A stretch of 64,000 nucleotides of DNA from the human T2T-CHM13v2.0 reference genome, Homo sapiens: the NCBI RefSeq assembly GCF_009914755.1, contig NC_060947.1. One strand, given 5' to 3'. Positions 22,050-29,960 of the stretch are shown here, piece after piece. The position numbers and the translations under genes are program-made. The notes beneath the pieces are model-generated. The model worked only from the letters and a program-made list of their open reading frames with translations, was not told where the DNA came from and made no database searches. Positions within the stretch are counted from its first letter, which is position 1; the number at the start of each line of letters is the position of its first letter.

Positions 22050-23090
22050 CCTCCTTCCGGCGCAGGCGCAATGTGGCGCCCGCCCTGTGTACTAGCGCCG
22101 CCACATCGACCGCAGCCCTCGCAGCCAGGGGGCGCGCGTCCAGCCGCGCCAGGAGCGGAAGGGCGCTGGGGCACGCGGGCGGGAGGGGCCCAGGCCTGCG
22201 CGCAAGAGGGGACAGGTCAACGCCGACCATCGGCCTCCGCCAACCCCCATGCTTCCGGACGCTCAAAGACTAGAAATGCCCCTCAGGATACCCGGCGACC
22301 CCTGGCCACTCCCTCGGTAGTTTCGGAGGTCACTGCTGTCCCTCCCCTCTCATGCGATCCCCGACCATCGCGGGTAGCGGGTGCACCCCCAGCCTGCTCT
22401 CACGGTGTCCCTGGAGATCGCTGTTTGACTGCAATAGTCCTAGACACCTCCGAACACCCCGTGAGGTCCTCGACTGCCCCCTAATCACCCTGGATGCCCA
22501 ACTCTTCATCCACGATATCTCAGGGGACCCATTTCCCCCAGATATCCCGGGAGAACACGGCCTGACCCCGTAGCCCCGGAACCCCCAATTCCCCCTCTAG
22601 GTATCCTAGGCAACCGCTGCTACCCCCATGAATTCCCTCAGAGGGCCCGTTCCCCCCATGGCCCACATACCTCCAGAGTCCCCCTCCACAGGTCCCCAGG
22701 GGCCCCCAGCTCCCCTCCCCCCAGTTCACTAAGACCCTGAGTGCCCAGGTGTCCCCAGTGACCACGGGCAGACCCCTCCCCGCACATCTGCACGTCTCCC
22801 TGGAGACTCCTGAGAGCCCCTCCCCTGCTCTGGTGCGCGGCCCTTTCCCTCGTGTGTGGGTGTGGGTAGGGGACCTCCAGCCCAGCCTCCATCGCTGGGC
22901 CCCTGCCCCCTGCCACCTTCACTTGGGCGCCAGAGCCGCTCTGTTTACCACCTGTCAGAAGGAAAAGGTGTGGAGCAGACAGGCGGGACGGGGGTGGCGG
23001 CGACTCGCTCTGTCCTTCCCCAACATCCCCAATCCCTGTACTTCCTCTGCTCCCCTTAGGGTTCGCGGCGCCCCCTGTGCGCGGCTCCAT
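22050..23090 (-). pseudogene. Inverted partial duplicate of MAGIX: intact exon 1' (23090-23042) and degenerate exon 2' (22195-22050)
   Basis: Exon 1' encodes MEPRTGGAANPKGSRG with the same Kozak context and 49-nt length as MAGIX exon 1. Exon 2' is 146 nt vs 147 nt (1-bp frameshift) and its donor is GTGTGT instead of GTGAGT. No copies of exons 3-6 follow. Confidence 0.9.
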
Positions 23091-24859
23091 GGCCAGTAGT
23101 CGGCCGGGTGGACGCAGGGCAGCCAGCGACGAGTTTTGAGCTCTGGGGCGTGCTCACCTGGTGACCCGCTCAGACCCTGGAAACAGGGTGGCGGGCCCGT
23201 GCCTGGTTCCTGTATCTGCGGGGTGGCCTATCTGGCGGCCAGCAAGGAGGCCTCCGTTAGCTGAGGACGCTGGGCTGGCTCCTTTTTCCACTCTGGGATG
23301 TTGCTATTCCAGCATAGGAAGGGGCAGTCGAAGCCCAGAGAAATTAGGGTACTGTCTGACCTCTGACAACTAAAAGCAGGGACGCAGAACTGGAGCCCGA
23401 GTTTACTAGGAAACTCTGCAATCTCCACCAGAGCTTTGCACAAGTAGGCACTCAGTATATTTGCAGGGAAAGTTTATCTCCCACTGTCCCTATTGGGAAA
23501 CTGGAAATGTGTGGTGGGACTGAGTACCGTTGGAGCTTTTGGAGCCAAAGAATGGTTTGGTGCTCTGGGCATTATGAGGTTGCGGAACTCAAAAATTGGA
23601 GAGGGTGGGCTGGGCGCGGTGGCTCATGCCTGTAATCCCAACACTTTGGAAGGCCAAGGCAGGTGGATCACTTGAGGCCAGGAGTTTGAGACCAGCCTGG
23701 CCAACATGGCAAAACTCCATTTCTACTAAGATTATAAAAATTAGCCAGGTGTGGTAGTGGGCATCTGTAATCTTAGCTACTCGGGGGGCTGAGGCAAGAG
23801 AATCGCTTGAACCTGGGAGGCGGAGGTTGCAGCGAGCTGAGATCGTTCCACTGCACTCCAACTTGGGTGACAGAGCAAGACTCCCTCTCAAGAAAAAAAA
23901 AAAAAAAGAAAAAGAAAAAGAAAAGAAAAGAAAAAAAAATTGCAGAGGGCAGGTCCCTTGGAGAGTGGATGAGAGATGGGACCCAAAATTGAGGAGGCTG
24001 TGAATGAATGCATTGGAGTTGGATGGGACACTAGCTGATGTCAGTGGAGGAATGAGGCCTCTTCTATGTTTGAAAAGGGGAGTGTCTGGGGACATAAGCC
24101 CCAAGCAGGGAGCATTCGGACACAGTGTGACTGTAGTGGAAGGAGGAATGGGATTGCAGTGAGAGAGGGCCTTTCACCACTACTTTGCCAAATAAGAAAC
24201 TCAGGGTCTGAGAGGCTCAGGGACCTGCCTAGGTCCCTGCAGCAAGCCAACAACACCAGTTTCAGGCAGCTTACCTACAAGACTCACTTGGTTAGTGACT
24301 ATTTCACTATGGCTGTGGACACACTGTGTCCTAATGTCCATTCTGGCTGGTTGTGCAAGCCTCTCCGTTCACCTTTCAGAGACCCAGTATCCTCATAGGT
24401 GAAAGGGTCTGAACGGTTCCTGCTTTCATTCCACCTGCAGTCCCCTGCCTCTTTCACCTCTGACCTGACCTTGTCTAAGGGGGGACACCCTGGACCTCCT
24501 TCACTGCTCCTCCCAATTCTTGTTGAGACTTCCACACCTGAATCTGGAGAGGGCAGCTTCCAATCTGGGGCTCCAGGTTTTAAGAACCTGTGGATGTGAG
24601 AGTGAGGTGCTTACACACTGTGAAGGAGAGCTTGAGGCTCTGTAGCTCCATGCATGGGAGGGTCTTGCAGACTGGGGCATTGTCCAAGGGCCGAGGACAG
24701 ATGGACAGTGAGGGGAGGCATCCAAGCACCAGGTAGAATCTACTAACATCGATCAGGGAGCTTGCCAACTGGATGGGAAACTGCTTCCAGGCTGGGAGGT
24801 ATTCAGGCTTGGGGAATCATGAACGAATGAAGGGGTCCAAGGACATCCTCAGGGGACGT

Positions 24860-25035
24860 GAATTACAGGGGCGGGGGCCCAGGATGCTGGATAGGTGTTC
24901 ACTGAGACAGCTGACACCAGCAGGGCTGAAATTACAGGGGCAGGGGCCCAGGATAGGTGTTCACTGAGAGAGCTGACACCAGCAGGGCCGAAATTCCAGG
25001 GCCAGAGAGTAGTGTATGTGTCACTGAGGCTGCTG
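24860..25035 (+). repeat. Short tandem repeat, ~58-65-bp unit, about 2.5 copies
   Basis: Repeats of AATTACAGGGGC(G/A)GGGGCCCAGGAT...AGGTGTTCACTGAGA(C/G)AGCTGACACCAGCAGGGC. Confidence 0.8.
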
Positions 25036-27836: not shown

Positions 27837-28419
27837 GGAAATAAAGCTGCTATGAATATTTGTAAGACAAGGCTGTGTAAATGTATGCTTTCTTTTAGAT
27901 AAATACGCAGGAGTGGAATGGCTGGCTCATATGTGTACGCTTAGTTTTTAAAGACACTACCAAACTGTTTTCTAAAGTTGCAGGCCGGGCACGAGTGGCT
28001 CACGCCTGTAATCCCAGCACTTTGGGAGGCTGAGGCGGGCCTCGCCTGTAATCCCAGCACTTTAGGGAGTTCGAGACCAGCCTGACCAACATGGAGAAAC
28101 CCCGTCTCTACTAAAAATACAAAATTAGGGGGGCGTGGTGGTGCATGCCTGTAATCCCAGCTACTCAGGAGGCTGAGTCAGGAGAATCACTTGAACCCGG
28201 GAGGCAGAGGTTGCAGTGAGCCGAGATCGTGCCATTGCACTTCAGCCTGGGCAACAAGAGCGAAACCCTGTCTCTAAATAAATAAATAAAGTTGCAATAT
28301 CATTTTACATTTCCACCGGCGGTATAGGAGTTCCATTTCCTCCATATCTTCAGCAACAGTTGGTATTGTCAGGCTTTTAAATTCTAACTAGGACCTTTAG
28401 TTAACAGAGTGCGGCGCCT

Positions 28420-29960
28420 GCAGCAGAGTGAGGCCAAGCACTCCTCCTGGCTCCTACAGCCAGGCCTCCTTGCTGGCCGCCAGGTAGGTCACCGCGCGGG
28501 TCCGGGAGCCAGGCACGGGACCCGCCAGCTTCAGCCTCCAGGGCCTGGGCGGGCCGCCAGGTGAGCGCGCCCCAGAGCTCAAAATTCGTAGCTGGCTGCC
28601 CTGCGTCCACCCGGCGGACTACTGGCCATGGAGCCGCGCACAGGGGACGCCGCGGACCCTAGGGGGAGCAGAGGAGGTACAGGGATTGGGGTCGTTGGGG
28701 AAGGACAGGGCGAGTCGCCGCCATCCCCGTCCCGCCTGTCTGCTCCACACCTTTTCCTTCTGACAGGTGGTAAACAGAGCGGCTCTGGCGCCCAAGTGAA
28801 GGTGGCAGGGGGCAGGGGCCCAGCGATGGAGGCTGGGCTGGAGGTCCCCTACCCACACCCACACACGAGGGAAAGGGCCGCGCACCAGAGCAGGGGAGGG
28901 GCTCTCAGGAGTCTCCAGGGAGACGTGCAGATGTGCGGGGAGGGGTCTGCCCGTGGTCACTGGGGACACCTGGGCACTCAGGGTCTTAGTGAACTGGGGG
29001 GAGGGGAGCTGGGGGCCCCTGGGGACCTGTGGAGGGGGACTCTGGAGGTATGTGGGCCATGGGGGGAACGGGCCCTCTGAGGGAATTCATGGGGGTAGCA
29101 GCGGTTGCCTAGGATACTTAGACGGGGAATTGGGGGTTCCGGGGCTACGGCGTCAGGCCGTGTTCTCCCAGGATATCTGGGGAAATGGGGTCCCCTGAGA
29201 TATCGCGGGCGAAGAGTTGGGCATCCAGGGTGATTAGGGGGCAGTCGAGGACCTCACGGGGTGTTCGGAGGTGTCTAGGACTATTGCAGTCAAACAGCGA
29301 TCTCCAGGGACACCGTGGGAGCAAGCGGGGGTGCACCGGCTACCCGCGACGGTCGGGGATCGCGTGAGGGGAGGGACAGCAGTGACCTCCGAAACTATCG
29401 AGGGAGTGGCCAGGGGTCGCCGGGTATCCTGAGGGGCATTTCTAGGTCTTCGAGCGTCCGGAAGCATAGGGGTTGGCCGAGGCCGAGGGTCGGCGTTGAC
29501 CTGTCCCCTCTTGCGCGCAGGCCGCGGCCCCTCCCCGCTCGCGGGCCCTAGCGCCCGGCAGCTCCTGGCGCGGTTGGACGCGCGCCCCCTGGCGGCGCGA
29601 GCTGCGGTCGACGTGGCAGCGCTGGTACGCAGGGCGGGCGCCACATTGCGCCTGCGCCGGAAGGAGGGTGAGTGACTGGCGCAGGGCCTCCGCTGGGGGA
29701 GGGTTCGGAGAGGAGTTGGGTTCAGTGGGACAGGCCTGGGGGGTCAGCAGCTACTGCCCTGTCTTGGGTGGGGCCAAGGGGCGCGACTTGGGGCGGGGAT
29801 CGGAGGGTGCTTCGAGTGGGAGGAGCCTTGGGGTTATTCTAGCATATTCCTTGAGGGTTATTGCAGTCGGCGAGGGCTAGATTAGATGAGAGTGCGGAAC
29901 TGGACCCCCGTTCTGGCGGCGGTCCTTTTTGAGGAGGCAGGGCCTGGAGAGTGCTTGGGG
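28420..29960 (+). promoter_or_regulatory. MAGIX CpG-island promoter / 5' region
   Basis: High GC and CpG density around exons 1-2; GC boxes. Confidence 0.75.

What the first reader, a model, noticed from the sequence alone, without database searches (positions are those of the whole stretch)
22601..29117. Invertible cassette that would swap the MAGIX promoter and first coding exon (a phase-variation-like switch)
Seen: two inverted copies of the MAGIX 5' end flank a ~5.2-kb spacer. Both keep an ATG in the same ggccATGG context, a 49-nt exon 1 and a GTACAG donor in the same phase. Only the right arm has an intact exon 2 leading to exons 3-6. The arms are identical over 393 bp of intron 1 (22601-22993 = 29117-28725), which lies between exon 1 and exon 2. 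Inference: a crossover in that core inverts 22994-28724 and joins exon 1' plus its promoter to the real exon 2, giving an intact 334-aa MAGIX starting MEPRTGGAANPKGSRGS instead of MEPRTGDAADPRGSRGG. From memory (unverified), the database MAGIX protein begins MEPRTGGAANPKGSRGSRGPSP, which is the flipped product. That would mean both orientations exist in humans, and the inversion itself may already be catalogued.
Basis: partly seen in the sequence, partly recalled or inferred. Interest (0 to 1): 0.9.

Follow-up and report, generated by a model that had tools for sequence, protein, structure and literature searches.

The report
Inverted MAGIX 5' duplication, not flipping
Two mirror-image copies of the start of the human MAGIX gene flank a 5-kb spacer and could in principle flip it, but this site is already a catalogued inversion candidate and long-read genotyping found only one orientation.

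Summary
The sequence observation holds at the stated coordinates. Two inverted arms (21586-23253 and 28462-30112, 91.6% identical) flank a 5.2-kb spacer. They share a 393-nt identical run in intron 1. Each arm has an ATG, a 49-nt exon 1 and a GTACAG donor. Only the right arm has an intact exon 2.

A crossover in the core would give an open 334-aa MAGIX with four N-terminal changes. The claim that both orientations exist in humans is not supported.
- The repeat pair is InvFEST candidate HsInv0074 in Moreira-Pinhal et al. 2026 (PMC13629690, Tables S1 and S3). It is marked not polymorphic, with the hg38 allele O1.
- CHM13 and all of the 54 of 54 individuals genotyped are O1, which I count as 85 X chromosomes.
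- The one human-labelled database protein, and all 11 catarrhine proteins with a standard exon-1 start, carry the right-arm N-terminus. None of 28 proteins has the left-arm N10 or S17.

Best reading: an old inverted partial duplication of the MAGIX 5' end. The left copy is a pseudogene, and the middle of the arms was homogenised by gene conversion. It is a possible substrate for homologous recombination between the arms, not a switch. Interest is low.

The parts
21586..23253 (-). Left arm: inverted partial copy of the MAGIX 5' end (TSS region, exon 1', intron 1', exon 2', start of intron 2'). Weaker homology continues to 21256.
   Evidence: blastn 91.6% over 1677 columns against 30112-28462. 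Second and only other genomic match of the right arm, 91%. GC 65%, CpG obs/exp 0.59.
28462..30112 (+). Right arm: the real MAGIX 5' end (exon 1, intron 1, exon 2, first 445 nt of intron 2). Weaker homology continues to 30191.
   Evidence: plus the hub annotation NM_024859.4. GC 67%, CpG obs/exp 0.67. The arm starts only 34 nt upstream of the annotated TSS at 28496.
23254..28461 (.). 5208-nt spacer between the two promoter ends. AT-richer and Alu-bearing, with no recognisable gene.
   Evidence: GC 47%, CpG obs/exp 0.23. Alu-like inverted pairs I4-I25 (the Alu name is my own recognition). 5 ORFs of 80 aa or more, 0 of 5 with a Pfam match. No Rfam family in 20000-31000.
22601..22993 (-). Left copy of the 393-nt identical core in intron 1'.
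   Evidence: Longest identical run in the global alignment. 0 differences in 393.
28725..29117 (+). Right copy of the 393-nt identical core, in MAGIX intron 1, 48 nt downstream of exon 1.
23042..23090 (-). Exon 1' coding part: ATG, 49 nt, donor GTACAG. Encodes MEPRTGGAANPKGSRG plus the first base of codon 17.
   Evidence: 4 nucleotide differences from exon 1.
28628..28676 (+). MAGIX exon 1 coding part. Encodes MEPRTGDAADPRGSRG plus the first base of codon 17.
   Evidence: Identical N-terminus in human XP_005278120.1 and 10 other catarrhine proteins.
22050..22195 (-). Pseudo-exon 2': acceptor and a GT donor are kept, but it is 146 nt (1-nt deletion), so the frame shifts and a stop follows 50 codons.
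   Evidence: 130 of 147 columns identical to exon 2.
29521..29667 (+). Intact MAGIX exon 2.
   Evidence: Hub annotation. The native CDS translates to 334 aa without a stop.
21705..21992 (-). First exon of lncRNA LOC105373195. It lies inside the left arm and runs in the sense of the pseudo-copy. It maps to MAGIX intron 2 (29726-29993).
   Evidence: Hub annotation.
21394..21585 (.). 192-nt segment present only in the left arm, inserted after the duplication.
   Evidence: Gap between blastn pieces; sequence printed. Its likeness to an L1 3' end is recalled, not tested.

Best explanation
This is an old inverted segmental duplication of the 5' end of MAGIX. About 1.7-2.0 kb (TSS, exon 1, intron 1, exon 2 and the start of intron 2) was copied head to head, 5.2 kb upstream of the gene.

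The left copy decayed. It has a frameshift in exon 2', no exons 3-6, and a later insertion. It now carries the first exon of a lncRNA.

The middle of the arms has been repeatedly homogenised by inter-arm gene conversion. Divergence steps from about 9-14% at the arm ends, to about 4% in the 3' part of intron 1, to 0% over 393 nt.

The identical tract makes non-allelic homologous recombination (NAHR) mechanically possible. A crossover there would invert the spacer and exchange promoter plus exon 1. The product would be an intact MAGIX with four N-terminal substitutions and different upstream DNA.

That inverted state has not been seen. The site is a catalogued but unvalidated inversion prediction (HsInv0074), and it was monomorphic in long-read genotyping.

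Shown: the anatomy, the reading frames, the two-copy status and the catalogue entry with its genotypes. Inferred: gene conversion as the cause of the identity gradient, the age of the duplication, and the capacity for NAHR.
For: Anatomy and frames.

Identity gradient, as K2P distance:
- inner edge / 5'UTR 0.136
- exon 1 CDS 0.089
- core 0 of 393
- 3' part of intron 1 0.044
- exon 2 0.119
- intron 2 0.106

Only 2 genomic copies.

Catalogue entry, PMC13629690 Supplemental Table S1:
- HsInv0074 at chrX hg38 49155846-49157442 / 49162798-49164374.
- Size 5355 bp, equal to the 5355 nt between the I1 arms.
- With that offset, the BP1 start and BP2 end fall within 1 nt of the blastn arm ends.
- Type SD, hg38 allele O1, source 'PEM inversion predictions', polymorphic 'No'.

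Genotypes, Table S3:
- Genotyping success 1.
- CHM13 is O1 and all 54 entries are O1 or O1/O1: 31 diploid and 23 single-allele entries, which I count as 85 X chromosomes.
- O1 is the reference orientation.
- 'HsInv0074' occurs only twice in the supplement files, once in Table S1 and once in Table S3, so no extra SV row is recorded for it.

Proteins:
- Of 36 fetched, 28 have an exon-1 start.
- 11 of 12 catarrhine ones, including the human one, read exactly as the right arm. The siamang model differs but also has D10 and R12.
- 0 of 28 have N10 or S17.
- So the exon 1 linked to exon 2 is the right-arm type across catarrhine assemblies.
- 14 of 16 non-catarrhine proteins have G7. The left copy therefore keeps the ancestral residue, which fits a duplication older than the catarrhine G7D change.
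Against: - Absence in 85 X chromosomes, some from relatives, only bounds the frequency: the 95% upper limit is about 3.5%, or about 5% if roughly 60 are independent. A rare or population-specific inverted allele is not excluded.
- An early paired-end mapping study did produce an inversion signal here, which is why the entry exists. I could not see that original evidence.
- Similar-sized repeats (HsInv0030: 1548/1546-bp SDs) do mediate a polymorphic exon-1-swapping inversion, so size alone does not argue against inversion.
- Gene conversion is inferred from one haplotype. No outgroup DNA was available to date or polarise it.
- The gorilla X3 model carries the human-left-arm state at three diagnostic sites next to its intact exon 2. 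This shows inter-arm exchange or lineage-specific change that I could not resolve.
- Only one human-labelled protein was visible. The database clusters at 90% identity, so a human variant with the left-arm N-terminus could be hidden inside a cluster.
Confidence: 0.85

Rival explanations
1. A real but rare or recurrent NAHR inversion. Both orientations exist in humans at low frequency or in unsampled populations, and carriers express MAGIX from the left-arm promoter with the G7/N10/K12/S17 N-terminus.
For: - The 393-nt identical tract lies between exon 1 and exon 2. That length exceeds the roughly 200-300 bp usually quoted as enough for mammalian homologous recombination (recalled).
- The flipped product has an open 334-aa frame.
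- There is a prior paired-end prediction.
- HsInv0030 is a precedent with equally short repeats.
Against: - 0 of 85 X chromosomes in 54 of 54 genotyped people, and hg38 has the same orientation.
- The entry's source is 'PEM predictions'. By the paper's method, this means it matched no call merged from five long-read, Strand-seq or optical-map studies of 195 individuals. That is my inference from the method text.
- Overall arm identity is only 91.6%.
- No database protein has the left-arm N-terminus (0 of 28).
Confidence: 0.12
2. A programmed or somatic switch, phase-variation-like. Cells flip the cassette at appreciable frequency to choose between two MAGIX promoters and N-termini.
For: Only the mirror-image architecture and the in-phase exon 1'.
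Against: - No recombinase or any Pfam domain in the spacer ORFs (0 of 5).
- The arms are long, diverged gene copies, not short specific sites.
- The left copy's own exon 2' is broken, so one of the two 'states' has no partner gene.
- Bulk long-read genotypes from 54 people were all called O1. Low-level mosaicism would not show in such calls.
Confidence: 0.01
3. Assembly artefact: the inverted duplicate, or its perfect core, is a mis-assembly of T2T-CHM13.
For: None found.
Against: - hg38 carries the same repeat pair, with the same 5355-bp inner distance and matching arm ends.
- ONT reads of CHM13 and 53 other people span both breakpoints in the reference arrangement.
Confidence: 0.01

Closest known systems
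HsInv0074 (InvFEST candidate inversion, Xp11.23), as listed in Moreira-Pinhal et al. 2026, Genome Res (PMC13629690), Supplemental Tables S1 and S3
   Same: It is this very locus. The repeat pair is 1597/1577 bp, the inner distance is 5355 bp, the type is SD, and the coordinates map onto the window arms within 1 nt.
   Different: The catalogue row gives coordinates, source and genotypes only, with no gene column. No searched main text links MAGIX to an inversion or contains 'HsInv0074', so the exon-1 swap and the four substitutions worked out here were not found in print.
HsInv0030, the CTRB1/CTRB2 inversion at 16q23 (Giner-Delgado et al. 2019, PMC6748972)
   Same: [quoted passage not shown] The MAGIX arms have the same architecture and would have the same consequence.
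   Different: - HsInv0030 is polymorphic, and both partners are working genes.
- Here one partner is a truncated pseudogene.
- The spacer is 5.2 kb here, against 16.5 kb.
- No inverted allele has been seen here.
Recurrent X-linked inverted-repeat inversions (HsInv0389 FLNA/EMD, HsInv0393 ARMCX6, HsInv0396, HsInv0397, HsInv0403; Aguado et al. 2014, PMC3961182)
   Same: An X-linked segment of kilobase scale between inverted SDs, with genic sequence inside the repeats.
   Different: Those have 4.3-32.2-kb repeats and both orientations validated by inverse PCR. The MAGIX pair is shorter, only 91.6% identical overall, is not in that list, and is monomorphic.
Bacterial invertible promoter switches such as fim and hin (recalled, not tested by any search)
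   Same: A promoter-bearing segment between inverted repeats whose flip would change what is expressed.
   Different: No dedicated recombinase, no short specific sites, and no evidence of reversible flipping. The mechanism available here is general homologous recombination.

Membership tests
Inversion polymorphism mediated by inverted repeats (NAHR; InvFEST type) | The segment is flanked by inverted repeats of at least 90% identity | tested here: met
   91.6% over 1677 columns. Listed as an SD pair in PMC13629690 Table S1.
Inversion polymorphism mediated by inverted repeats (NAHR; InvFEST type) | The arms share a tract of uninterrupted identity long enough for homologous recombination | tested here: met
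   393 nt with 0 differences. The threshold of about 200-300 bp is recalled.
Inversion polymorphism mediated by inverted repeats (NAHR; InvFEST type) | Both orientations are observed among individuals | tested here: not met
   From the literature: hg38 is O1, CHM13 is O1, and 54 of 54 individuals are O1 (85 X chromosomes). The 'Polymorphic inversion' column says No. I had no other assemblies to compare myself.
Exon-1/promoter exchange between head-to-head paralogues (CTRB1/CTRB2 type) | Two head-to-head copies, each with promoter end, exon 1 and a donor in the same phase, and the exchange point in intron 1 | tested here: met
   Both exon 1 coding parts are 49 nt with ATG and a GTACAG donor. 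The identical core lies in intron 1. The swapped CDS is open for 334 aa.
Exon-1/promoter exchange between head-to-head paralogues (CTRB1/CTRB2 type) | Both partners are functional genes | tested here: not met
   The left copy has a frameshifted exon 2', and its homology ends in intron 2. There is no third copy in the genome.
Phase-variation invertible element (site-specific recombinase switch) | A dedicated recombinase is encoded in or beside the element | tested here: not met
   5 spacer ORFs of 80 aa or more, 0 of 5 with any Pfam family at E <= 0.01.
Phase-variation invertible element (site-specific recombinase switch) | Reversible flipping at high frequency within a population of cells | not testable with these tools
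   Bulk ONT genotypes are all O1, but mosaic read fractions are not reported in what I could read.
Segmental duplication homogenised by inter-arm gene conversion (as in X and Y palindromes) | A block of much higher arm-to-arm identity than the rest of the duplicated sequence | tested here: met
   K2P is 0 in the core and 0.044 next to it, against 0.09-0.14 elsewhere. The chance of the 393-nt run is about 2e-12, or about 8e-9 with the lower local mismatch rate.
Segmental duplication homogenised by inter-arm gene conversion (as in X and Y palindromes) | Phylogenetic proof that the arms are more alike within a species than orthologous arms are between species | not testable with these tools
   No primate DNA was available. 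The only hint is that the gorilla X3 N-terminus matches the human left arm at 19 of 19 residues and the right arm at 16 of 19.

The most novel reading that the evidence does not exclude
The pair is a live recombination substrate. Rare inverted haplotypes, or polymorphic gene-conversion tracts reaching exon 1 only 48 nt from the identical core, would give some people a MAGIX allele with the left-arm N-terminus (G7, N10, K12, S17). In the inversion case the gene would also sit under a different promoter and upstream region. That would also explain the old paired-end signal that created HsInv0074.
Probability: 0.12. Interest if true: 0.35.

Novelty: already known. Interest (0 to 1): 0.14.

Why it matters
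It matters little as it stands. The locus is an ordinary small inverted segmental duplication on the human X. It is already listed as an inversion candidate and was monomorphic when tested.

What this check adds is the gene-level reading:
- The arms are the MAGIX 5' end and a decayed copy of it.
- The copy seeds a lncRNA.
- The only in-frame consequence of a flip would be four conservative-looking changes in a poorly characterised N-terminus, plus a promoter change.

If a rare inverted or converted allele were found, it would be a second human example of the CTRB1/CTRB2 type of exon-1 exchange. It would also be a handy natural promoter-swap allele of a gene of little-known function.

The finding also shows the value of separating what was read from the sequence, which was right, from what was recalled from memory. 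The recalled database N-terminus was contradicted by the one human-labelled protein retrieved.

Tried and rejected
- my first coordinates for exon 1' were off by one and gave a false N-terminus. Corrected.
- I searched the protein database with the 40-aa read-through of exon 1' (P0121) to look for any protein with the left-arm N-terminus. There were 52 candidates and none at E <= 10. This is uninformative, because proteins with the closely similar right-arm start (P0005, P0006) did not score either; a 17-aa match is too short for a database of that size.
- PDB holds only the PDZ domain (2djt, residues 101-195 of P0005), so no N-terminus can be read there.
- literature searches linking MAGIX with inversion, inverted, segmental duplication or gene conversion listed nothing on this locus.
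  - 10 papers held the terms and 8 were listed, all unrelated by title.
  - 39 papers held at least 2 of 3 terms and 20 were listed.
  - all 15 listed papers had a MAGIX count of 0.
- 'HsInv0074' occurs in 0 main texts.
- Aguado et al. 2014 list six chrX inversions, none at this position.
- Vicente-Salvador et al. 2017 is not held, and its entry in the reference list gives no PMC id.
- the one held HGSVC3 table file (Logsdon et al. 2025) has no 'MAGIX', and its two numeric hits are unrelated. The file was cut when stored, so this is weak.
- no Rfam family in 20000-31000.
- I used the last protein search on the intron-1 read-through plus exon 2, hoping to see other apes at the three arm-diagnostic sites. 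Only the gorilla model covers that part.
- The assembly-artefact and recombinase-switch readings were considered and rejected (see rivals).

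
Full report
**1. The observation**

The window holds a genuine inverted repeat at the stated place.
- The repeat finder reports arms 22387-23181 and 28537-29331: 795 nt, 96% complementary, 5355 nt apart. A string of collinear weaker pieces lies on both sides.
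- blastn joins them into one alignment, 21586-23253 against 30112-28462: 91.6% over 1677 columns, with 106 mismatches and 23 gap openings. Two further pieces reach 21256 and 30191.
- A global alignment gives a longest identical run of 393 nt at exactly 22601-22993 = 29117-28725.
- Outside that core the arms differ at 8.35% of aligned sites. Such a run has a chance probability of about 2e-12, or about 8e-9 with the lower local rate.
- The whole T2T-CHM13 assembly contains only these two copies.

**2. Anatomy in gene terms**

The right arm is the real 5' end of MAGIX. It begins 34 nt upstream of the annotated TSS (28496) and runs through exon 1, intron 1 and exon 2 into the first 445 nt of intron 2. 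The left arm is its mirror image on the minus strand, so the two copies lie head to head with the 5208-nt spacer between their promoter ends.

Exon 1' (23042-23090, minus) keeps the ATG in the same context, the 49-nt length and the GTACAG donor. It differs from exon 1 at four bases, giving D7G, D10N, R12K and G17S. Exon 2' (22050-22195) keeps its acceptor and a GT donor but has lost one base. Exon 1' plus exon 2' therefore shifts frame and stops after 50 codons.

The annotated CDS translates to 334 aa. Exon 1' joined to exons 2-6 is also open for 334 aa. My first attempt at exon 1' was off by one base and was corrected.

**3. History of the arms**

Divergence is not uniform:

| Region | K2P distance |
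|---|---|
| Inner edge / 5'UTR | 0.136 |
| Exon 1 CDS | 0.089 |
| 393-nt core | 0 |
| 3' part of intron 1 | 0.044 |
| Exon 2 | 0.119 |
| Intron 2 | 0.106 |

This stepped pattern is what repeated inter-arm gene conversion leaves on an old duplication. That is an inference from one haplotype.

A divergence of 9-14% points to tens of millions of years. This estimate rests on general primate substitution rates, not on a test.

The protein data agree in a weak way. Exon 1' keeps G7, the state in 14 of 16 non-catarrhine MAGIX proteins fetched. The functional catarrhine exon 1 has D7.

Other features of the arms and spacer:
- The left arm carries a 192-nt insertion (21394-21585) that the right arm lacks.
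- The left arm holds the first exon of lncRNA LOC105373195 (21705-21992, minus). That exon maps to MAGIX intron 2, and the right arm keeps the same GTGAGT donor.
- Both arms are CpG-island-like (GC 65-67%, CpG obs/exp 0.59-0.67). The spacer is not (47%, 0.23).
- The spacer has five ORFs of 80 aa or more, none with a Pfam match.
- No Rfam family lies in 20000-31000.

**4.

Yes, geometrically. Both exon 1s lie on the spacer side of the identical core. A crossover in the core would invert 22994-28724 and place exon 1', with its own upstream DNA, in front of the real exon 2.

Intron length, branch region and acceptor would be unchanged. The protein would differ at four N-terminal residues. Because the spacer turns with the exons, each exon 1 keeps its own upstream sequence. 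MAGIX would therefore change its whole proximal upstream region, not just 34 nt of shared promoter.

**5. Does it flip?**

(a) The locus is already catalogued. Supplemental Table S1 of Moreira-Pinhal et al. 2026 (PMC13629690) lists HsInv0074:
- chrX hg38 49155846-49157442 / 49162798-49164374, size 5355 bp, repeats of 1597 and 1577 bp;
- type SD, hg38 allele O1, source 'PEM inversion predictions', polymorphic inversion 'No'.

The 5355-bp inner distance equals that. With that offset, the outer ends fall within 1 nt of the blastn arm ends.

(b) Table S3 gives genotyping success 1, no minor allele, and CHM13 = O1. All 54 entries are O1 or O1/O1. I count 31 diploid and 23 single-allele entries, which is 85 X chromosomes, some from relatives. 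O1 is defined as the reference orientation, read from long reads spanning probes on both sides of each repeat.

(c) By the paper's method text, a 'PEM' source means the site matched none of the 1528 calls merged from five long-read, Strand-seq or optical-map studies of 195 people. That is my inference from the method description. [quoted passage not shown]

- A search with the last coding exon returned 167 proteins at E <= 1e-5, of which 120 were listed. I fetched 36 of them.
- 28 have an exon-1 start.
- The human-labelled XP_005278120.1 and 10 other catarrhine proteins read MEPRTGDAADPRGSRGG, the right-arm form.
- The siamang model differs but has D10 and R12.
- 0 of 28 have N10 or S17.

These are models built on genome assemblies. 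They show that the right-arm exon 1 sits next to exon 2 across catarrhines.

**6. Limits**

- Zero of 85 chromosomes bounds the frequency only to about 3.5%, or about 5% for roughly 60 independent chromosomes.
- I saw one human-labelled protein only, and clustering at 90% identity could hide a variant.
- The direct search for the left-arm N-terminus was uninformative.
- I could not see the original paired-end evidence, the InvFEST record, Vicente-Salvador et al. 2017, or the supplements of the five merged studies.
- The one held HGSVC3 table file was cut and had no relevant entry.

**7. Comparison with what is known**

The kind is well known: inversions mediated by inverted repeats through NAHR, many of them X-linked and recurrent (Aguado et al. 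2014, passages read).

The closest functional precedent is HsInv0030. [quoted passage not shown] 2019, passage) and has repeats of nearly the same size, 1548/1546 bp.

The MAGIX pair shares the architecture but fails two defining features. One partner is a pseudogene, and no second orientation is known. It has none of the features of a recombinase-driven phase-variation switch.

No searched main text links MAGIX to an inversion or names HsInv0074. The gene-level consequence worked out here was not found in print, while the structural candidate itself is catalogued.

**8. Side observation**

The gorilla isoform X3 model (P0009) starts in intron 1 and reads into an intact exon 2. Its first 19 residues are identical to the translation of the human left arm. 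They differ at three residues from the human right arm. No other ape model covers this stretch.

This fits sequence exchange between the arms during hominid evolution, or clustered change on the human lineage. It could not be resolved.

**9. Verdict**

The best explanation is an old inverted partial duplication of the MAGIX 5' end, homogenised in its middle by gene conversion. It is a potential but unobserved NAHR substrate (confidence 0.85). Novelty: already known. Interest: low.

Noticed in passing
window 22196-22252 (-) and 29466-29520 (+); protein P0009: The gorilla MAGIX isoform X3 model begins with 19 residues read from intron 1 into an intact exon 2. They match the human left-arm translation at 19 of 19 residues and the human right arm at 16 of 19 (M/I, G/R, W/G). 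The human right arm has ATA where the left arm and gorilla have the ATG. This suggests inter-arm exchange or clustered human-lineage change.
   Followed up: partly
window 21705-21992 (-) and 29726-29999 (+): The first exon of lncRNA LOC105373195 lies inside the left arm, 58 nt beyond pseudo-exon 2', in the sense of the pseudo-copy. Its GTGAGT donor is conserved at the mirrored place in MAGIX intron 2 (29994), so the duplicated CpG island appears to have been reused as a lncRNA promoter.
   Followed up: partly
window 21394-21585: A 192-nt AT-rich segment ending in an A-run is present only in the left arm. It looks like an L1 3' end (recalled, not tested) inserted after the duplication.
   Followed up: no
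window 28403-28483: An alternative MAGIX first exon in the hub annotation straddles the inner boundary of the right arm (28462). Its start is spacer sequence and would move away from MAGIX if the cassette flipped.
   Followed up: no
window 22038-22357 / 29475-29584 and 20887-22347 / 29685-30185: RefSeq functional-element rows (silencer, cis-regulatory region) sit at roughly mirrored places in the two arms. An 'enhancer' row (22568-23266) covers the left-arm core and exon 1', with no listed counterpart on the right. Whether this is real activity or reads mapping to both arms was not examined.
   Followed up: no
protein P0077 (Nycticebus coucang): The slow loris MAGIX also has D at residue 7, like catarrhines, while 14 of 16 non-catarrhine proteins have G. 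The G/D change at codon 7 has therefore happened more than once, which weakens its use for dating the duplication.
   Followed up: no
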